Shown here in pieces: positions 35,000 to 61,254 of a stretch of 64,000 nt of DNA. The notes under the pieces are model-generated. The model was given only the letters and a program-made list of their open reading frames with translations, ran no database searches and was not told the DNA's origin. The stretch spans positions 18,641 to 82,640 of the forward strand of contig CAVQRZ010000021.1 of NCBI GenBank assembly GCA_963715335.1. Reading direction: 5' to 3'. Numbering within the stretch: the stretch's first letter is position 1; each line of letters starts with the position of its first letter. Both the position numbers and the translations under genes were made by a program. The stretch comes from an uncultured delta proteobacterium (GTDB lineage Bacteria > Desulfobacterota > Desulfuromonadia > Desulfuromonadales > BM103).

Positions 35000-35710
35000 A
35001 TGTCATTCGGGAAATACTTCAATAAAGGGCAGAAGGTTTTTATCAAGCGGGTCTACAGCGATGAAGAACCGCCCGCCGTGGATACGATCACCGGCTATGC
35101 CATGCGCAGCCAGCCGATGCAGCTGGACCTGGCCCTGCCTTACGGATCGGACGCAGCCGACTCCTACCCTTTCGAACCAGAGATGAAGTTCGAGGTCATG
35201 ACCGACAGCAAGGGGATGGGGTTGCGCCTGACCGCAGCGTTCGTCGAGAAAATCAGCAGCCAGGACATCCGATTGGAGTTTGCAGGGGACCTGGAGTTTA
35301 TCTCCCGCAGGATTTACCCGCGCGTTGACGTCAACGCCTGGGTGGGGCTCAAGCGCGGCGAGGGCAATCTCTCGGCAATGCGTCAGCTCTGGCGAGAGCA
35401 CCTGGATAAAATCAGGTCAGGGGTTTCCGCTGCAGAGTTCACCGAATTCAACAAATACCTGGTCAACCTTGCCGGTGGCGGAATGCGCCTGCCCATGCAG
35501 CCGCCGATCAACATGGCTGAGCTGGTTTTGGTCTATCTGTCGATCGGCGACAAGAAAGGGATCATCTGTGGCCTTGCCGAGGTAATCTGGGTCGGGGAGG
35601 AGCAGAGCAACGGTCTGCAACTGGGCGGATTACGCTTCCTGAACATCCTTGAAGAAGACCAGGCCCGGCTAGATGCGGTCGTCAAGGGGCTCCTCGATCG
35701 TCTGGCTTAA
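35000..35710 (+). CDS. PilZ-domain protein
   Basis: RxxxR (RIYPR), NLAGGG motif, AEVIWV...GLRF. Confidence 0.75.
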   Translation: MSFGKYFNKGQKVFIKRVYSDEEPPAVDTITGYAMRSQPMQLDLALPYGSDAADSYPFEPEMKFEVMTDSKGMGLRLTAAFVEKISSQDIRLEFAGDLEFISRRIYPRVDVNAWVGLKRGEGNLSAMRQLWREHLDKIRSGVSAAEFTEFNKYLVNLAGGGMRLPMQPPINMAELVLVYLSIGDKKGIICGLAEVIWVGEEQSNGLQLGGLRFLNILEEDQARLDAVVKGLLDRLA

Positions 35711-42097: not shown

Positions 42098-42354
42098 AAG
42101 AGTCCAGTTCAGCCTTGACACGACAACTTTTGCCAGGTTTGGGCCCTAAATGGCACCCATACAGCAATCCTCTTAGAGTTCTTAGATCATCGTGGTTGCC
42201 GAAACTCATTTGGGTGGCTAGAGAGCTGGAGGGTTCTACTTACAATGTTACCCAGGGGATTGATTATCTTTACCTCAAGGCGCCAATTCTCCCGATAACC
42301 GCATAAATGACACGACATTAAGCACCTGTAAAATAAAGACAAATCACAAAATAC

Positions 42355-42383
42355 TTGACCACGGACAAAAATATTATCATAAT
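42355..42383 (+). promoter_or_regulatory. Putative sigma70 promoter upstream of riboswitch 1
   Basis: TTGACC-17 nt-CATAAT in an AT-rich context. Confidence 0.5.
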
Positions 42384-42464: not shown

Positions 42465-42550
42465 GTCTCCGAAAAAGGCAAAACCAGAGAAATCTGGTGA
42501 CGCAAAGCCACGGGTCCTCAAATTCAGGACAGCCGGGTTGCCGAAGAGAG
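42465..42550 (+). promoter_or_regulatory. Cyclic di-GMP-I (GEMM-I) riboswitch aptamer 1
   Basis: GGC-AAA-ACCAGA-GAAA-TCTGGT-GACGCAAAGCC...GGGTCCT...AGGACAGCCGGGTTGCCGAA: P2 with GNRA loop, P3 and GCAAAGC junction. Confidence 0.92.
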
Positions 42551-42590
42551 TGTTCGCCTAGCTTTTGCCTTGATCAACTTCTGCAACGTT

Positions 42591-42627
42591 AAGCGCCCAT
42601 CTTCGGTATCGAGGTGGGCGCTTTTTT
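42591..42627 (+). terminator. Intrinsic terminator of riboswitch 1
   Basis: AAGCGCCCATCT...AGGTGGGCGCTTTTTT. Confidence 0.85.
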
Positions 42628-42875
42628 ATTCTGCCAGAGTGGATGCAGATCATCGTGAAACATTTCATACTGAATTGCATTGAGAGACCAGTGATGTGGT
42701 TAAATGACTATACCTTTTCAATCATGGACACACTTTCGATACGCACGACACCTGTGCACGCACACTGTCCAATCAGCTGCTTAATACAAACCTGCGTGGA
42801 GATGCATAAATTCCTTGTAATGATATCAACCGCTTCTATTCGATTCTGTGGAAGGCTTGTCATCTCTCATGTCAA

Positions 42876-42892
42876 TTGGCATGCTCTCTGCT
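42876..42892 (+). promoter_or_regulatory. Putative sigma54 promoter between riboswitches 1 and 2
   Basis: TTGGCAT-GCTCT-CTGCT (GG-N10-GC). Confidence 0.45.
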
Positions 42893-43036
42893 TAATCTGG
42901 ATGGTGTTCGCATACAGGCGTGATGCAAAGAATCTCGAATGAGCATGAGTCGATCAACAGTCTTTTGCAAGACAAGGTAACCGCGACATGGAGCGCAAAC
43001 CGATGGCATAGAATCTTTATTTTAAAAACTAAATAA

Positions 43037-43122
43037 GTCTCCGATAAGGGCAAAGCCAGAGCAATCTGGCGACGCAAAGCCACGGGTCCTCAAATTCAGG
43101 ACAGCCGGGTTGCCGAAGAGAG
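43037..43122 (+). promoter_or_regulatory. Cyclic di-GMP-I (GEMM-I) riboswitch aptamer 2
   Basis: GGGC-AAA-GCCAGA-GCAA-TCTGGC-GACGCAAAGCC...GGGTTGCCGAA; P2 shows a compensatory change relative to copy 1. Confidence 0.92.
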
Positions 43123-43161
43123 TGTTCGCCTAACTTTTGCCCCGATCAATTTCTGCAATGT

Positions 43162-43199
43162 AAAGCGCTCACCTTCGGTAACGAGGTGAGCGCTTTTTT
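43162..43199 (+). terminator. Intrinsic terminator of riboswitch 2
   Basis: AAAGCGCTCACCT...AGGTGAGCGCTTTTTT. Confidence 0.85.
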
Positions 43200-43383
43200 A
43201 GTTTGGAGGTTAACCTTCAGTTCAGCAATTGCATGAGATAAAAAGCTATAGAGGTCCTGTGCAACCGACATTGAATGATACATAGACAACCAACAGACAA
43301 CCAACACACTTTTATCAGGCAAGGGAACAACGACATGGAGTGCAAACCGATGGCATAGAATCTTCATTTTAAAAACTAAATAA

Positions 43384-43469
43384 GTCTCCGATAAGGGCAA
43401 AGCCAGAGCAATCTGGCGACGCAAAGCCACGGGTCCTCAAATTCAGGACAGCCGGGTTGCCGAAGAGAG
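43384..43469 (+). promoter_or_regulatory. Cyclic di-GMP-I (GEMM-I) riboswitch aptamer 3
   Basis: Identical to aptamer 2, 347 bp downstream. Confidence 0.92.
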
Positions 43470-43508
43470 TGTTCGCCTAACTTTTGCCCCGATCAATTTC
43501 TGCAATGT

Positions 43509-43546
43509 AAAGCGCTCACCTTCGGTAACGAGGTGAGCGCTTTTTT
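43509..43546 (+). terminator. Intrinsic terminator of riboswitch 3
   Basis: Same hairpin plus T6; ends about 45 bp before the ATG at 43592. Confidence 0.85.
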
Positions 43547-43591
43547 AGTCTGGACGTTAACTCTCAGTTCAGCAACTGCGGGAGGAAAAAG

Positions 43592-46500
43592 ATGGGGTAT
43601 ACCATGACAAAAGCAATTTTACTTACAGTTTGTCTATTTCTGGCCATCACGGCTACGGCCAATGCCAAGACGGTTAATCTGGCTTGGGATCCGAGTCCAA
43701 GTACCAATGTTGCGGGATATAAGATTTACTATAAGGAGGGCTCTTCAAGTCTACAATTTAATGGCACTGGCGCTAACGAAGGATCTTCTCCGATTGATGT
43801 GGGAAAAGTCCTGAGTTCAAGCCTCACGGGTTTGCCAGATACCCAGACACATTATTTTGCTGTTACGGCTTACGATACATCAGGGAACGAGAGCACACCT
43901 TCAAATATCGTCGATAGCTCACCGGTTATCATAGCCATCAATCATCCCCCGGTGCTGGCCGCCATCGGCAGCAAGACGATTAATGAAGGAACCAACCTGA
44001 GCTTCACCCTGAGCGCCACGGACCCCGATGGCGACAGCCTGACCTACAGTGCCACCGGCCTGCCGAACGGCGCTACCTTCAATGCCGCGACGCGGACGTT
44101 CACCTGGACCCCGAGCAACACCCAGGCCGGCAACTACAACGTGAGCTTCAGCGTTAGTGACGGCAGCCTGAACGATGCGGAAACGGTTGCGATCAGTGTC
44201 GGCAACGTGAACAGACCGCCGGTGCTGGCCGCCATCGGCAGCAAGACGATTAATGAAGGAACCAACCTGAGCTTCACCCTGAGCGCCACGGACCCCGATG
44301 GCGACAGCCTGACCTACAGTGCCACCGGCCTGCCGAACGGCGCTACCTTCAATGCCGCGACGCGGACGTTCACCTGGACCCCGAGCAACACCCAGGCCGG
44401 CAACTACAACGTGAGCTTCAGCGTTAGTGACGGCAGCCTGAACGATGCGGAAACGGTTGCGATCAGTGTCGGCAACGTGAACAGACCGCCGGTGCTGGCC
44501 GCCATCGGCAGCAAGACGATTAATGAAGGAACCAACCTGAGCTTCACCCTGAGCGCCACGGACCCCGATGGCGACAGCCTGACCTACAGTGCCACCGGCC
44601 TGCCGAACGGCGCTACCTTCAATGCCGCGACGCGGACGTTCACCTGGACCCCTGGCAACACCCAGGCCGGCAACTACAACGTGAGCTTCAGCGTTAGTGA
44701 CGGCAGCCTGAACGATGCGGAAACGGTTGCGATCAGTGTCGGCAACGTGAACAGACCGCCGGTGCTGGCCGCCATCGGCAGCAAGACGATTAATGAAGGA
44801 ACCAACCTGAGCTTCACCCTGAGCGCCACGGACCCCGATGGCGACAGCCTGACCTACAGTGCCACCGGCCTGCCGAACGGCGCTACCTTCAATGCCGCGA
44901 CGCGGACGTTCACCTGGACCCCTGGCAACACCCAGGCCGGCAACTACAACGTGAGCTTCAGCGTTAGTGACGGCAGCCTGAACGATGCGGAAACGGTCGC
45001 GATCAGTGTCGGCAACGTGAACAGACCGCCGGTACTGACCGCCATCGGCAGCAAGACGATTAATGTAGGAACCAACCTGAGCTTCACCCTGAGCGCCACG
45101 GATCCCGATGGCGACAGCCTGACCTACAGTGCCACCGGCCTGCCGAACGGCGCTACCTTCAATGCCGCGACGCGGACGTTCACCTGGACCCCTGGCAACA
45201 CCCAGGCCGGCAACTACAACGTGAGCTTCAGCGTTAGTGACGGCAGCCTGAACGATGCGGAAACGGTCGCGATCAGTGTCGGTAACGTGAACAGACCGCC
45301 GGTACTGACCGCCATCGGCAGCAAGACGATTAATGTAGGAACCAACCTGAGCTTCACCCTGAGCGCCATGGATCCCGATGGCGACAGCCTGACCTACAGT
45401 GCCAGCGGCCTGCCGAACGGCGCCACCTTCAATGCCGCAACTCGATTGTTCACATGGACCCCGAGCAACACCCAGGCCGGCAACTACAACGTGAGCTTCA
45501 GCGTTAGTGACGGCAGCCTGAACGATGCGGAAACGGTTGCGATCAGTGTCGGCAACGTGAACGGACCGCCGGTGCTGACCGCCATCGGCAGCAAGACGAT
45601 TAATGAAGGAACCAACCTGAGCTTCACCCTGAGCGCCATGGATCCCGATGGCGACAGACCTGACCTACAGTGCCACCGATCTGCCGAGCGGGGCCAGCTT
45701 CAATGCCGCGACGCGAATGTTCACCTGGACCCCTGGCAACACCCAGGCCGGCAGCTACAACGTGAGCTTCAGCGTTAGTGACGGCAGCCTGAATGATGCG
45801 GAAACGGTTGCGATCAGTGTCGATGCCTCTGTGCCTGAGGGTCTCAGTCTTCCGCTATCGGAAAACGGATTGCCCGGAGTCGAACGCGAAGATGGCGGTG
45901 ACGACTCTAACAACTATGTCAACGGAATGCCAAAAGGCGACCTGAAGTATATCTTCCGTGTCGTTCTGCGGGATACCTCGGGTGGTGAATTGCCAAGCGT
46001 TCTCCTTATCCTGAACGGGTACGCTTACCCCATGGTTCGAGAAGTCGGCGGCATTGAAACCGGTGCAACATTTTCCTTCACAACCCGACTTGGTCCAGTC
46101 GCGTCGCATCGTTTTTATTTTCAGTCCAGAGACGCAGAGGGAAAGATTCTTTCCGAATTCCCTGCACAAGAAGATTTACAAGGTCCTCAGGTGGAGTTTC
46201 TGAATGGGAAAAATATGGTCGGTGCACGTGGCGATATCAACCTTCTTCAGTTGAGCAGTACCGATGCTATTGGCACAACCCAGTCGTTTCGTTGGATCCC
46301 CAGCGAGAAGAAGAACGGCAGCTACGTTCGCGTTGACAATGGTGGCCCGGTGATTCTCGGTGAAGGGTATGTCATTAAACGGACAACCGATAGTTTCCTG
46401 CCGTCCATGGAGCAGTTTGGCGAAAACCATGCACTGACCTCTGAGATCGCTGTCAAAGCGGGCTGGAACCTGATAGCCAACCCTTATGGCGGAAATGTTC

Positions 46501-46745
46501 CTCTCTCAAAAGTTCTGATCCAGGATGGAGGCTCAGAGCCAATCAGCTGGGTTGAGGCCGTCAGCCGTCGGATGATAGTCGACGGGTCATATTACTACAC
46601 CGGAAGGGACTGGGGGGGCGGTACTGTTTTCGAAAGTAGCGATGGAGAACAGGGAGCGATTCTTATTCCCGGGATCGGATACTGGATCTACGTCAACTCC
46701 GAAAACGAGCCAGTTTCTCTTATCATTCCTAAACCGCAACAATAG
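43592..46745 (+). pseudogene. Large secreted Fn3 + Ig/cadherin-like repeat protein (~1050 aa if intact), split by a +1 frameshift into ORFs 43592-45778 and 45648-46745
   Basis: Signal peptide (ATANA/K), Fn3 domain (LAWD...GYKIYY...YFAVTAYDTSGNES) and seven 90-aa repeats (NRPPVL...ATDPDGDSLTYS...LP.GA.FNAATRTFTWTP...VSDG). Repeat 7 has an extra A at 45658 (GACAGaCCTG versus GACAGCCTG in the other six). Confidence 0.8.
43951..45821 (+). repeat. Seven near-identical 270-bp tandem repeats
   Basis: Units begin at 43951, 44221, 44491, 44761, 45031, 45301 and 45571. Confidence 0.97.
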
Positions 46746-46755
46746 GAGAGTTGAA

Positions 46756-47925
46756 ATGCATACTTTCAAATTTATCAAAATGCCCCTTATCGCTTCTCTG
46801 CTCTTTATTGTGACCGCCTGCGGAGGAGGTGAAGATGGCGGTGATTATCCCGTTGTGTTAAACGGCCAGGTTGCCGACGGCTATCTATCTGGTGCCAGAG
46901 TCTTCCTTGACCGCAACGGGAACCGGATGCCCGACCCCGGAGAACCCTCGACCGAGTCTGGGGCTCAAGGTCATTTTTCGCTGGACATCGAGCAGGGAGA
47001 AGGGAATCTTTACCCGATCGTCGCCGAAGTTATCGCCGGCAAAACGATTGATGAAGACCAACCCAACCAATATGTTGCCGAAAGTTATCAGCTAGAAGCC
47101 CCTGCGGGCAAATGGGCGTTTATTTCGCCTTTGACTACTCTGGTCAATCATGAACTCAGCAAAGATTCGACCCTTTCGCTGCAGGAAGCTGAGATTCGAA
47201 TCCTTTCGCAACTTGGGCTTGGCAGCAACATCTCCCTCTTTGAAGATTATATCCAGGCACCGAGCAACACAGGGCTGGGGAGGGCTCATCGCGCAGCCAG
47301 AATCATCGCAGGATTAATGGGGAGTCTGCAGAAGGAGATTGAACTGAATCTCGGTGTCGAAAACGCTGAGGGCAAGAGAACGGCAATTTCCCTGATGATA
47401 AGTGACCAGATTGTGAACAACTGTGATGCCATTGCTCTGGGCCTTGCCTCCGCAGGAGAGGCTATCGCGATTGAGGAGACCCAAACGGCGGTTCTGCAGG
47501 GAATCAATACCACCCGTCTTAATGCTGAGCTTCTGGATCGTTATGTCGAGCGAATGCAGGTCACGAATACGATTTGGGATATGACACCTCCAAAGGTCAT
47601 CAACCAGAGACCCCTTGTTGACGGCAACGCCTCCATCGACGTCGTTGTCTCTCTGGTCTTCGACGAAGAGATCGATCCGGAATCGATATCGCAAGAGACA
47701 ATCCAGATCATCGGCCCGTCAGGGGCGATGCCCGGAACGATCGCTTACGACCCTACTTTAAAGGAAGTCAACTTTACGACTGAGAGCTATCTGAGGGCAT
47801 TTACGACATACCAGGTTTACCTTACCGGTATCGCTGACAAGTACGGCAACAGCCTCGAGCAACCTCAAAGCTTTAATTTTACGACGATATTCGATCAACG
47901 CCCCCCAGAACTGCCTGAATTCTAG
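46756..47925 (+). CDS. Lipoprotein with C-terminal Ig-like (Big_5-type) domain
   Basis: Lipobox VTAC-GGG, G.VADGYL.GA.VFLD.NGN, ISPLTTLV and C-terminal DMTPPKV...FDEEIDP...FTT. AGGAG RBS, 10 bp after the upstream gene. Confidence 0.8.
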   Translation: MHTFKFIKMPLIASLLFIVTACGGGEDGGDYPVVLNGQVADGYLSGARVFLDRNGNRMPDPGEPSTESGAQGHFSLDIEQGEGNLYPIVAEVIAGKTIDEDQPNQYVAESYQLEAPAGKWAFISPLTTLVNHELSKDSTLSLQEAEIRILSQLGLGSNISLFEDYIQAPSNTGLGRAHRAARIIAGLMGSLQKEIELNLGVENAEGKRTAISLMISDQIVNNCDAIALGLASAGEAIAIEETQTAVLQGINTTRLNAELLDRYVERMQVTNTIWDMTPPKVINQRPLVDGNASIDVVVSLVFDEEIDPESISQETIQIIGPSGAMPGTIAYDPTLKEVNFTTESYLRAFTTYQVYLTGIADKYGNSLEQPQSFNFTTIFDQRPPELPEF

Positions 47926-47994: not shown

Positions 47995-48046
47995 GCCCCG
48001 TGCTTCTCCCCTCCCTCATGGAGAGGGTTGAAGCATGGGGCTATTT
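47995..48046. terminator. Hairpin between the convergent lipoprotein and DAHP synthase genes
   Basis: GCCCCGTGCTTC...GAAGCATGGGGC. Confidence 0.45.
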
Positions 48047-58345: not shown

Positions 58346-59917
58346 ATGCAGAACTCCAACGAGCTTTATAAACTGATTACCGTCGCCCTGACCGGAGTCG
58401 TCAAACAGATCAAGGCGATCAGGTACTACCCACCAAAACACCCGGCCCTGCAGGCAACAGCGGGGGAATGTCTACGTGGGTTTCAACCGATCCTTGCGGG
58501 AGACAACCATCTCTCACTGTTGGTGCGCAAGGATGCCTTCCTGTTCGATGATAACCCGGTCGCCAAGGGCAACCAGGTCTTGTCTCAACTCTCCAGCTTC
58601 TGTTTCGCGCGCCGCATCCAGCACCTGACATTCCTGGCCGATTTGAACAGCAACGATCTTCACCATTTCGTGCACTACCTGCTGCTCGACCCGCAGGTCA
58701 TCCAGAAGCACGGGGGCATCCAGGTCATTCTCCAGAAGGCCCGCCTGACAACGATTTGGGCCAATGTTCACAACCTGGAGGAAATCCTGCAACGCAGGGA
58801 TGAAATCGAAGCGCTCCCGGAGGATCTGGATTTTGACCCGGGTGCGGTTCTCGAACAGGCCGGAGAAATCTACGACGTGCAGTCGCAGGCTGATGCCCTT
58901 GATTTGGAATCACTCCTGGCAAAACTGGAGCAGGAGCAAAACGATAGCAGGTTCCAGCACTCCCTGCAGAAGTTGATCCCGCTGCTGCGCATACAGCTCT
59001 TCGAGGAAAGTCGCCCTCTGATCCTGCGCGCTTACCTGCTGCTCTGCCGGACAGCAACGGGCAAACAATTTTCCGAAGACCGAAAACAGTATGCCAGGCT
59101 CGCTCTGGGCCAACTGGCAAGCGATGAAATAACCAATTACCTGGTGGCGTATACCCTTGACAAAGACACCGACAAGAAGACCAGGATCCTGTTGATTCAG
59201 ATCCTCGCCTACCTGGGCGACAAGGTGGCCAACCGGATCATGCAGATCCTGTGCAGTGAAGAATCTGCATCCCATCGCAAAACCCTGAGTGATATCCTGA
59301 CTCGTGGCGGCACTGCAGTCCTGCCGACCATTCACGACTACCTGAACGACGATCGATGGTACGTCGTGCGCAACGCGATCGCAATCATGGGGGATATCCG
59401 CAGCCAGGACTCCCTGGCCGAGCTCTCCCTATTGCTCCAGAACGAGGACATTCGCGTCCGCCGCGAAACGATTCGGGCCCTGACCAAAATCGGCGGCAAA
59501 CGTGCGATCAAGATCCTGCTGCAAACGGCCGCAGCAGAGGACCAGGAGATCCGCCGGCAGGCGATCCTCTCCCTGGGAGCTCTGCGTGCAACGGCGGCCG
59601 TTCCGATTCTGATCGCGCTATTAAAACAGCGAGGTTGGACCCAGCGGGAAATAGATCTCAAGAAAGACGCGATCCGCGCTCTTGGGGAGATACGCGCCCC
59701 CGAGGCCACCCCGGAGCTGGTAAGAATCCTGAAGAGAAAACGTTGGATGCACCGCCAGCTCAACGATGAGCTGCGGGCCGCTGCGGCAGCCGCGCTCGGC
59801 GACATCGCCAACGAAAGCACAATCAGTGCGCTCGACAAAACAACCAATGACCGCAATCCAAAAATCGCCAGGGCTGCAGCCCAGGCGCTCAAGCAGCTGG
59901 ACAAGGGAAACACATGA
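58346..59917 (+). CDS. HEAT-repeat protein
   Basis: N-terminal YYPPKHP motif and C-terminal PBS-lyase HEAT repeats (DDRWYVVRNAI, VRRETIRAL). Confidence 0.85.
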   Translation: MQNSNELYKLITVALTGVVKQIKAIRYYPPKHPALQATAGECLRGFQPILAGDNHLSLLVRKDAFLFDDNPVAKGNQVLSQLSSFCFARRIQHLTFLADLNSNDLHHFVHYLLLDPQVIQKHGGIQVILQKARLTTIWANVHNLEEILQRRDEIEALPEDLDFDPGAVLEQAGEIYDVQSQADALDLESLLAKLEQEQNDSRFQHSLQKLIPLLRIQLFEESRPLILRAYLLLCRTATGKQFSEDRKQYARLALGQLASDEITNYLVAYTLDKDTDKKTRILLIQILAYLGDKVANRIMQILCSEESASHRKTLSDILTRGGTAVLPTIHDYLNDDRWYVVRNAIAIMGDIRSQDSLAELSLLLQNEDIRVRRETIRALTKIGGKRAIKILLQTAAAEDQEIRRQAILSLGALRATAAVPILIALLKQRGWTQREIDLKKDAIRALGEIRAPEATPELVRILKRKRWMHRQLNDELRAAAAAALGDIANESTISALDKTTNDRNPKIARAAAQALKQLDKGNT

Positions 59918-61254
59918 ATGTTGATGAGATAAAGAAGTTTGTTCAGGTCCTGACGGCAGCCGTCAAGGGTTTGCGCCTCTATGCCGTTGATCATCCGGCC
60001 ACGACGAAACAGGTCGAAACCCTGCAGAACGGCCTGTTCGCAATGCTTCAGTACAAGAAGATGATCAAGATGGGACTGCTCGAGGGGACTCTCTTCGTCG
60101 AGGATCATCTTCTCATGCAGGAGTTCCAGGCAGCAACGGAACTGGCCAAAATGATGGAATCGTGCGAGCTGGTCGGTTTTGAATTCATGACCGGGCTCTC
60201 CGCCAACGAGATCCAGTCCCTTCTGCACCTGTTGCACTCGGGCAACAGCAAGGGCCAGGATTTTGCCGATGCCCTGGTTTCACAGGGGGTCAAGAAGATT
60301 CGTGCGGTGGCTGCGACAGATGATAACGACGATGACGATCAGCAACCGCGCAAGGTCTACCACAAGGCCCTCAAGGTTGTTGACCAGATCTTCCAGGATG
60401 TCCGCATGGGAGAGATCCCTTCGTCAGAAGATGCCATCAACGTCGTCAAGAACATGGCCCAGCTGACCATGACGGAGCCTCACGCCATGCTGGCCCTGTC
60501 GATGCTCAAGGATTATGACAACTACACCTTCACCCACTCTGTCAACGTCTCGGTTCTGGCCCTCGCCATTGGTCGTGCCTGTAAGCTGACAGAAGAACAG
60601 CTCAGGACTCTGGGGCTCGGTGGGTTGCTGCACGACCTGGGCAAGCTTCGCGTTAATGTCAACATCATCACCAAACCCGGCAGGCTGACCGACGCCGAAT
60701 TTGAAGAGATCAAGGAGCACCCGGGTTTCGGAGCCGAGATCATCAAGGAAATGGAAGGCGTGACCGACGAGGTCATGCAGATCGTCCATGGTCACCATCT
60801 CCGTTATGACCGTACCGGCTACCCGAGTGAGGCCGTCAAAGATACGGTTTCACCCCTGGTCGAGATGACGGCGATTGCCGATGCCTACGATGCCATGACC
60901 ACGCTGCGCTCCTACCAGAGGCCCTTCACGCCGAGAAACGCGATTGCACGGCTGAAAGACGTCGCCGGTTCTTCACTCCATCCGGATTTTGTCATGCACT
61001 TCATCGAATCGCTCGGGCCCTACCCGGTGGGCAGCCTGGTCCGCCTCGACAGCAACGAGATCGGCCTGGTCACCAAGGTTGAGCCGCAGGATACCAGTCT
61101 GGTCGATATCAAGATCATTTACAATCCGGCCGGCGTCATGCTTGATGAACCTTACATGATGCAATTGCGCCCCGATCAGCCGCGCAAGATCGTTGCCGAA
61201 GTCGACCCGCAAACCAAAGGCATCGATGTGACCAACTTTTTCGATCTCGGCTAG
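59914..61254 (+). CDS. HD-GYP domain protein (putative cyclic-dinucleotide phosphodiesterase)
   Basis: YTFTHSVNV, LLHDLGK, HHLRYDRTGYP and IADAYDAMTT.RSYQ; 4-bp overlap with the HEAT gene. Confidence 0.9.
   Translation: MNVDEIKKFVQVLTAAVKGLRLYAVDHPATTKQVETLQNGLFAMLQYKKMIKMGLLEGTLFVEDHLLMQEFQAATELAKMMESCELVGFEFMTGLSANEIQSLLHLLHSGNSKGQDFADALVSQGVKKIRAVAATDDNDDDDQQPRKVYHKALKVVDQIFQDVRMGEIPSSEDAINVVKNMAQLTMTEPHAMLALSMLKDYDNYTFTHSVNVSVLALAIGRACKLTEEQLRTLGLGGLLHDLGKLRVNVNIITKPGRLTDAEFEEIKEHPGFGAEIIKEMEGVTDEVMQIVHGHHLRYDRTGYPSEAVKDTVSPLVEMTAIADAYDAMTTLRSYQRPFTPRNAIARLKDVAGSSLHPDFVMHFIESLGPYPVGSLVRLDSNEIGLVTKVEPQDTSLVDIKIIYNPAGVMLDEPYMMQLRPDQPRKIVAEVDPQTKGIDVTNFFDLG

What the first reader, a model, noticed from the sequence alone, without database searches (positions are those of the whole stretch)
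42465..43546. Triple tandem c-di-GMP-I riboswitch array, each unit with its own terminator, upstream of an adhesin-like operon
Seen: three complete GEMM-I aptamers (42465, 43037, 43384), each followed about 40 nt later by a hairpin plus T6. No credible ORF lies between them, and the third terminator ends just before the RBS of the repeat-protein gene. Units 2 and 3 are a 347-bp duplication. Unit 1 differs by compensatory pairs (P2 ACCAGA/TCTGGT versus GCCAGA/TCTGGC; terminator C-G versus T-A), which suggests selection on structure. Known: independent tandem riboswitches steepen the dose-response, and a triple c-di-GMP array has been described in Bacillus thuringiensis. Inference: this is a rare three-stage, switch-like gate on surface-protein expression in a Desulfuromonadales-like organism.
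Basis: partly seen in the sequence, partly recalled or inferred. Interest (0 to 1): 0.85.

Follow-up and report, generated by a model that had tools for sequence, protein, structure and literature searches.

The report
Triple c-di-GMP riboswitch, probably OFF-type
Three genuine copies of a well-known RNA sensor for the bacterial signal c-di-GMP, each with its own stop signal, sit in front of a secreted surface-protein gene; such arrays are already described, and here each copy looks built to stop transcription when the signal is bound, with a probable second promoter that skips the first copy.

Summary
There are three c-di-GMP-I aptamers (RF01051 73.5-77.2 bits, all G20/A47/C92), each followed by its own terminator. 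A same-genus genome carries the whole array at 93% identity, and contigs of another sample bridge every junction, so it is no assembly artefact. Two refinements. (1) Polarity: each terminator's 5' arm and loop is complementary to the aptamer strand holding C92. This is the layout of the C. difficile OFF switch Cd1, the opposite of the B. thuringiensis Bc3-5 triple (ON). A conserved linker also pairs with the aptamer and leaves room for ON logic, so OFF is about 65%. (2) A sigma-54-like site lies between unit 1 and unit 2, and five close homologues have such a site directly before a doublet or singlet. The array is probably one unit plus a doublet, not a strict three-stage gate. In a toy model three units deepen repression about 90-fold but sharpen the response only about 2-fold. 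Twelve c-di-GMP-I triplets are already published, this genome holds a second triple, and this scan reported OFF-type triples and doublets on other DNA before. Verdict: a new member of a known kind.

The parts
42355..42383 (+). sigma-70-like promoter candidate P1 (TTGACC-17-CATAAT, 10 of 12)
   Evidence: 4 promoter-like sites found, 2.3 expected by chance, so weak alone; both hexamers kept in G004 and L178
42467..42545 (+). aptamer 1, c-di-GMP-I (GEMM-I); G20 at 42477, A47 at 42504, C92 at 42541; GAAA tetraloop on P2
42563..42576 (+). linker element 1, complementary to the 5' strand of the aptamer (anti-aptamer helix)
   Evidence: 0 of 200 shuffles as stable
42591..42627 (+). terminator 1 with T6; its 5' arm and loop (42601-42608) can pair with the aptamer 3' strand as an antiterminator
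42643..42942 (+). 99-codon ORF, probably not a gene; the stretch more likely serves as a promoter region
42877..42892 (+). sigma-54-like promoter candidate P2 (9 of 10 consensus positions, consensus recalled), between terminator 1 and aptamer 2
   Evidence: chance 0.06 in the 409-nt gap; kept in G004 and L178
43039..43117 (+). aptamer 2; G20 at 43049, A47 at 43076, C92 at 43113
43135..43148 (+). linker element 2 (anti-aptamer)
43162..43199 (+). terminator 2 with T6; antiterminator strand 43173-43180
43386..43464 (+). aptamer 3, identical to aptamer 2; G20 at 43396, A47 at 43423, C92 at 43460
43482..43495 (+). linker element 3 (anti-aptamer)
43509..43546 (+). terminator 3 with T6; antiterminator strand 43520-43527
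43592..46745 (+). secreted surface-protein gene: signal-peptide-like N-terminus, Fn3-like domain, seven 90-aa He_PIG repeats, 308-aa all-beta C-terminal region. Read as two ORFs (43592-45778 and 45648-46745) because of a +1 frameshift near 45658; intact (870 aa, 5 repeats) in G004
46756..47925 (+). second gene of the operon: predicted lipoprotein (lipobox-like VTAC, read by eye) with a C-terminal Big_5 domain
47995..48041 (.). strong hairpin after the lipoprotein gene, probable end of the operon

Best explanation
Three independent c-di-GMP-I transcriptional OFF switches in series, probably fed by two promoters. Without ligand, the 5' arm and loop of the nascent terminator pair with the aptamer's 3' strand (G91-G97, which includes the ligand-contacting C92). 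The terminator cannot nucleate and polymerase reads on. With c-di-GMP bound, that strand is locked in the aptamer, the terminator folds and transcription stops. Transcripts from the sigma-70-like P1 pass three gates; transcripts from the sigma-54-like P2 pass only units 2 and 3. The operon (Ig-repeat surface protein plus lipoprotein) would be made only at low c-di-GMP. Shown here: aptamer identity, pocket bases, terminators, complementarity and its conservation, copy number. Inferred: ligand binding, direction, use of either promoter, adhesin function.
For: Folding at the stage when the terminator loop has emerged: the antiterminator fold is -53.5 (unit 1) and -55.5 kcal/mol (units 2 and 3), against -41.8 and -46.6 for the best fold leaving the terminator arm free. 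The barrier to the terminator is 16.6 and 12.8 kcal/mol from the antiterminator, but 2.3 and 1.3 with the aptamer locked. Of 51 units examined, 43 carried the loop motif; in these the antiterminator was favoured in 43 of 43 and the barrier order held in 40 of 43. The motif TCGG(C/T) lies in the terminator top in 48 of 57 riboswitches with this aptamer 3' strand, against 22 of 573 other terminators of the genome. The 7-bp core pairs in 98.9% of 280 cells, against 21-66% when slid. Before homologous genes, C92 pairs with the loop G (P>0.5) in 27 of 33 units. Cd1's antiterminator also captures the ligand-pairing C (PMC9262584). Promoter: a site scoring at least 9 of 10 lies before the first unit in L179, L180, L203, L208 and L209, and after unit 1 in L178.
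Against: The antiterminator core is invariant, so there is no two-sided covariation (0 pairs), and the units are related by descent. A swap test on aptamers with other 3' strands failed (own partner better in 1 of 8). The pairing was not predicted in 6 of 33 homologous units. A conserved linker helix can trap the unliganded aptamer: barrier 6.0-7.4 kcal/mol into the trap and about 15 out of it by nested paths, which would let the terminator form without ligand. c-di-GMP normally promotes attachment, also in G. sulfurreducens (PMC6456294), so OFF control of an adhesin-like gene is against the usual logic. The sigma-54 site has a chance of 0.06 in this gap; only 5 of 21 loci scanned have a 9-of-10 site before their first unit; another 9-of-10 site at 42151 is not kept in the orthologues; and a profile of four relatives' promoter regions did not find the window's spacer (E=7). 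No ligand or transcription data.
Confidence: 0.62

Rival explanations
1. ON switches by kinetic protection. Without ligand the linker captures the aptamer early and hides its 3' strand, so the terminator forms. Bound c-di-GMP protects the aptamer from the linker until the terminator arm emerges; the arm then invades P1, expels the ligand and forms the antiterminator.
For: The linker pairs with the aptamer better than 95% of shuffles in 32 of 42 units (9 with the 5' strand, 23 with the 3' strand). The 5' helix is -10 kcal/mol or better in 17 of 18 distinct window-type units, with an A-U/G-C change between unit 1 and units 2-3. Trap-to-antiterminator barriers are 14.8-15.3 kcal/mol here and 20.7 in a paralogue on C9. 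ON control would fit the usual c-di-GMP/adhesin logic.
Against: In the window's units the trap binds the 5' strand, so it can coexist with the antiterminator as an H-type pseudoknot. A rough estimate puts that state 2.5-7.5 (unit 1) and 1.5-6.5 kcal/mol (unit 2) below the trap. With the aptamer locked the barrier to the terminator is only 1.3-2.3 kcal/mol. The model needs ligand release within about a second, whereas Cd1, with the same competing pair, acts as OFF.
Confidence: 0.2
2. One promoter, strict three-stage gate: the sigma-54-like site is chance or vestigial, and all transcripts start upstream of unit 1. This concerns layout only and is compatible with either direction.
For: P1's hexamers are kept in three genomes. 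The sigma-54 match alone has a chance of 0.06. The promoter profile test was negative.
Against: The site is kept in G004 and L178, with L178's changes falling in the spacer positions. A 411-nt non-coding gap separates units 1 and 2, against about 190 nt between units 2 and 3. Five close homologues have such a site right before their first unit.
Confidence: 0.3
3. Unit 1 mainly ends read-through from the upstream metallophosphoesterase gene or makes a short RNA, and units 2 and 3 are a recent, near-neutral duplication.
For: No terminator-like site was found between the metallophosphoesterase stop (42097) and unit 1. Units 2 and 3 share an identical 184-nt core. L178 has lost the aptamers after the sigma-54 site and keeps only a terminator.
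Against: Doublets stand before 11 of 34 homologous genes across several genera. In G004 both cores stay nearly unchanged while the spacers drift.
Confidence: 0.1
4. The ligand is c-AMP-GMP (3'3'-cGAMP) or both dinucleotides, as for many GEMM-I RNAs of Geobacter.
For: The order uses cGAMP riboswitches (PMC6456294), and A20 aptamers with the same terminator motif occur in relatives.
Against: All three aptamers here and all 33 before homologous genes have G20. G20 marks c-di-GMP recognition and wild-type Vc2 discriminates against cGAMP (PMC6140456).
Confidence: 0.07

Closest known systems
Bc3-5 triple-tandem c-di-GMP-I riboswitch of Bacillus thuringiensis CT-43, cspABCDE leader (PMC4759541; passages read)
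   Same: Three complete class I units with separate terminators, before cell-surface protein genes.
   Different: Bc3-5 is ON: its terminator includes the aptamer's binding-site C and P1/P3 bases. Here the terminators lie about 45 nt downstream and the aptamer strand forms the antiterminator. The spacing here is uneven (572 and 347 bp), with a probable internal promoter.
Cd1 c-di-GMP-I riboswitch of Clostridioides difficile (PMC9262584; first part of the text and passages read)
   Same: Aptamer and terminator can coexist, and the antiterminator pairs terminator-strand bases with the ligand-binding C: OFF logic.
   Different: Cd1 is a single unit before flagellar genes. The units here are triplicated and carry an added linker element complementary to the aptamer's 5' strand.
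Pseudo-cooperative tandem c-di-GMP-I riboswitches, 347 doublets and 12 triplets (PMC9481103; abstract, passages and section 11 read)
   Same: Independent same-ligand units in series; this class has the most tandems of any.
   Different: The passages read give neither polarity nor internal promoters. The paper's supplement, which I did not open, may already list Desulfuromonadales triplets.
Tandem GEMM-Ib (cGAMP) riboswitches of Geobacter sulfurreducens, e.g. before omcAHG (PMC6456294; section 8 read)
   Same: Related lineage; tandem GEMM-I units before envelope genes.
   Different: Those sense cGAMP and act as ON switches; these have G20 and an OFF layout.

Membership tests
c-di-GMP-I riboswitch (RF01051) | Covariance-model score above the gathering threshold | tested here: met
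   77.2, 73.5, 73.5 bits against 35
c-di-GMP-I riboswitch (RF01051) | Pocket bases G20, A47, C92 (G20 and C92 from PMC6140456; A47 and Vc2 numbering recalled) | tested here: met
c-di-GMP-I riboswitch (RF01051) | P2 with GNRA tetraloop, P3, short P1 | tested here: met
   no non-canonical marks in the three cmscan alignments; loops GAAA and GCAA
c-di-GMP-I riboswitch (RF01051) | Binds c-di-GMP and changes expression | not testable with these tools
   needs in-line probing or transcription assays
c-di-GMP-I-GGC variant (RF03167) | G at the position of A47 in the model consensus | tested here: not met
   the model consensus has G there, all three aptamers have A; that this base defines the variant is my reading of the consensus and family name
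c-AMP-GMP riboswitch (GEMM-Ib) | A at position 20 | tested here: not met
   G20 in all three
Pseudo-cooperative tandem riboswitch | Complete units, each with its own expression platform, same ligand | tested here: met
Pseudo-cooperative tandem riboswitch | All units on one transcript | tested here: inconclusive
   no credible gene between units, but a sigma-54-like site lies between units 1 and 2; the RNA-library data were contigs and cannot show starts
Pseudo-cooperative tandem riboswitch | Steeper dose-response than one unit | not testable with these tools
   only a toy model with assumed parameters
Bc3-5 / pilM-type ON platform | Terminator stem includes the aptamer 3' strand | tested here: not met
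   terminators start about 45 nt downstream; 6 of 71 terminator-bearing aptamers from relatives do show the overlap
Cd1-type OFF platform | Terminator strand pairs with the ligand-binding C of the aptamer | tested here: met
   by computation only
Cd1-type OFF platform | Ligand raises termination | not testable with these tools
   needs a transcription assay
sigma-54 promoter | -24 GG / -12 GC with correct spacing, conserved | tested here: met
   an RpoN-box motif is present in the genome; consensus recalled
sigma-54 promoter | Upstream activator site homologous to that of relatives | tested here: inconclusive
   similar by eye in the alignment, not significant by profile (E=7)

The most novel reading that the evidence does not exclude
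This Desulfuromonadales family of GEMM-I platforms is a three-helix kinetic switch. An added linker element, aimed at the aptamer's 5' strand in one subfamily and at its 3' strand in another, traps the ligand-free RNA and turns a Cd1-type OFF platform into an ON switch in which the ligand acts only as a transient protector and is then displaced. Stacked behind two promoters, the array would give promoter-specific two-gate or three-gate thresholds.
Probability: 0.15. Interest if true: 0.7.

Novelty: new member of a known kind. Interest (0 to 1): 0.33.

Why it matters
As a triple array it adds one more case to a published class. If OFF is right, it is a natural deep-repression c-di-GMP sensor that complements the ON-type Bc3-5 reporter, and it implies that a family of large Desulfuromonadales surface proteins is made at low rather than high c-di-GMP. 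My seven literature searches listed no characterised OFF-type c-di-GMP-I triple, but the library lacks most subscription papers and I did not open any supplement. Homologues with one, two and three units, and the linker element, make the direction and the role of copy number cheap to test.

Tried and rejected
Assembly artefact: rejected. Coding role of the 99-codon spacer ORF: rejected as unlikely. Filing under RF03167: rejected on the pocket base, although cmscan ranked it first. CTTCGG as an ordinary UUCG tetraloop: rejected, because in the predicted terminators the motif spans the top of the 5' arm and the loop, and the loop itself is GGUA. Covariation as proof of the antiterminator: none found, and the swap test failed. 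A first folding run picked the wrong motif copy in several units, including unit 1, and was replaced; the column labelled n20 is position 19 and was not used. My pattern caught only 76 distinct aptamers in the loci held, fewer than the covariance model finds there, so those counts are a subset. Promoter-region profile: negative. RNA-library contigs: X15 shows cover up to about 43537 and almost none over the gene start, X16 covers both at even depth; contigs cannot show ends or levels, so no conclusion is drawn. Function of the C-terminal region: no Pfam match or NCBIfam match, only unnamed Atlas clusters, no Foldseek match at E<=0.001; residues 7-127 are Ig/Fn3-like (best Z 10.7, rmsd 2.4, 96 aligned, 6fhn) and residues 128-308 were barely tested. 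PMC8835794 (passages) gave nothing on tandem or G20 units. One locus (L176) was left out of the counts because it repeats a triple already counted.

Full report
Observation. A cmscan of the 64-kb window against Rfam gave three matches and nothing else, at 42468, 43040 and 43387. RF01051 scores them 77.2, 73.5 and 73.5 bits. Each aptamer is followed about 45 nt later by a 13-14-bp hairpin and six T. All three have G20, A47 and C92. G20 and C92 are the c-di-GMP contacts, and A20 marks the cGAMP variant (PMC6140456, passages). Units 2 and 3 start 347 bp apart and share a 291-bp block (270 identical) with an identical 184-nt core. The only sizeable + strand ORF between units (99 codons) has no Pfam match, changes mostly non-synonymously against G004 (3 against 12) and is interrupted in L178.

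Copy number is real. Of 43 other genomes of the family, one (G004, same genus) holds the whole array at 93% identity, with the riboswitch cores nearly unchanged and the spacers drifting. Contigs of run X2 span 42531-43075, 43170-43422 and 43517-43940, that is each unique junction, and X15 spans two of them.

Context. The downstream gene encodes a signal-peptide-like start, an Fn3-like domain, seven 270-bp He_PIG repeats and a 308-aa all-beta region, followed by a predicted Big_5 lipoprotein and a strong hairpin. A +1 frameshift near 45658 splits it here; the G004 gene is intact with five repeats. Adhesin function is plausible but not shown; the folded part searched is only generically Ig-like. 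Of 34 homologous loci (L177-L210), 11 have two GEMM-I units upstream, 11 have one and 12 have none, and 9 of those 12 lack the gene's 5' end. All 33 units are G20/A47/C92. Riboswitch control of this gene family is therefore old, and copy number varies from one to three.

Rarity. The genome has 18 GEMM-I matches, including a second triple on C9 before a gene of at least 2565 aa and a doublet on C16. Among the 150 rows listed from 41 genomes (264 more were not listed) there are triples in G015 and G020 besides G004. Sherlock et al. report 347 doublets and 12 triplets of this class (PMC9481103).

Direction. The top of each terminator's 5' arm and its loop are complementary to the aptamer's 3' strand, including C92-G94. 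When the loop has emerged, the antiterminator fold is 9-12 kcal/mol more stable than any fold leaving the arm free. The path to the terminator costs 12.8-16.6 kcal/mol from the antiterminator but 1.3-2.3 with the aptamer locked. Of 51 related units examined, 8 lacked the motif; in the other 43 the antiterminator was favoured in 43, the loop was paired without ligand in 42, free with the aptamer locked in 33, and the barrier order held in 40. The motif sits in the terminator top of 48 of 57 riboswitches with this aptamer strand, against 22 of 573 other terminators of the genome. The core pairs in 98.9% of cells in a 40-row alignment but shows no two-sided change, and a swap test on eight aptamers with other 3' strands failed. 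The layout is that of Cd1, whose antiterminator captures the ligand-pairing C and which is an OFF switch (PMC9262584). It is not the layout of Bc3-5, which is ON (PMC4759541).

A complication. The linker between aptamer and terminator pairs with the aptamer's 5' strand (G20-A25 region) in 17 of 18 distinct window-type units, with an A-U/G-C change between unit 1 and units 2-3. Across 42 units the linker pairs with one or other aptamer strand better than 95% of shuffles in 32. By nested paths this helix is a trap: 6.0-7.4 kcal/mol in and about 15 out. In the window's units it can in principle coexist with the antiterminator as an H-type pseudoknot, which a rough sum favours by 1.5-7.5 kcal/mol depending on unit and assumed penalty. 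It would then help antitermination and close the ligand-binding window. If it cannot coexist, a kinetic ON mechanism is possible. I put OFF at about 65%, ON at 20% and weak or constitutive behaviour at the rest. These are secondary-structure energies without tertiary contacts or ligand.

One gate set or two. A sigma-54-like site (9 of 10, consensus recalled) lies at 42877-42892, between terminator 1 and aptamer 2; its chance in that gap is 0.06. It is kept in G004 and L178. Five of the 21 loci scanned (L179, L180, L203, L208, L209) have such a site 47-116 nt before their first unit. A sigma-70-like site precedes unit 1. The simplest history is a sigma-54-driven doublet with unit 1 and its promoter added upstream. 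Against this: the profile test of the promoter regions failed, another 9-of-10 site at 42151 is not kept in the orthologues, and no start site is mapped. I give the internal promoter about 65-70%.

What stacking buys. In a toy model with independent units and assumed termination of 5-90%, the 10-90% span is 81-, 49- and 37-fold for one, two and three units, the dynamic range 9.5-, 90- and 855-fold, and the half-point falls to 0.48 and 0.30 of the single-unit value. The gain is mainly depth and sensitivity, not a sharp switch.

Earlier notes of this scan. AI notes on other genomes already report OFF-type triples and doublets, among them a Geobacter-family and a Desulfuromusa case. I had reached the OFF reading before looking, and did not check their loci. 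They are not independent support, but they show the scan has met this design before.

Verdict. A real, conserved triple c-di-GMP-I array; a new member of a known kind; probably OFF, probably one unit plus a doublet. Interest 0.33. The linker element is the one part that could hide a new mechanism.

Noticed in passing
G000:C9:14719-16138 (L002, L003, L009, L010): Four GEMM-I units in one operon leader: one after a sigma-54-like site and before an OmpA/Pal-family gene, then a tight triple (215-216 bp spacing) before a gene of at least 2565 aa. The linkers here pair with the aptamer's 3' strand, the best case for kinetic ON logic.
   Followed up: partly
L178:960-1145: A close homologue keeps unit 1 and the sigma-54 site but has only a terminator half, without aptamer, before the gene: a deletion that would silence the gene, or a collapsed repeat in a 3.1-kb contig.
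   Followed up: partly
G000:C33:46611-46700; L034, L037, L057: A20 (cGAMP-type) aptamers followed by a downstream terminator with the same complementary loop, i.e. candidate cGAMP OFF switches, whereas the G. sulfurreducens GEMM-Ib switches described in PMC6456294 are ON.
   Followed up: no
L023:2346-2902 (G020:C168): A triple GEMM-I array about 180 bp apart, two units with a terminator overlapping the aptamer (ON-type layout).
   Followed up: no
G011 and G024: 38 and 37 RF01051 matches per genome, about twice the 17 reported for G. sulfurreducens.
   Followed up: no
G000 C15/C28, C1/C32, C9/C2/C16: Near-duplicate riboswitch loci on different contigs and 6.87% contamination suggest two strains in the assembly, so the count of 18 may be inflated.
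   Followed up: no
window 43946-45820: Seven near-identical 270-bp repeats (five in G004), with a +1 frameshift in the last; repeat-number variation or an assembly error.
   Followed up: partly
window 45819-46745: The 308-aa C-terminal region is conserved across Desulfuromonadales, folds with confidence (pLDDT 89) and has no Pfam or NCBIfam family; residues 128-308 weakly match Armatimonadota proteins.
   Followed up: partly
window 35000-35710 and 59914-61254: A PilZ-domain gene and an HD/HD_5-domain gene lie in the same window, both of families linked to c-di-GMP signalling.
   Followed up: no
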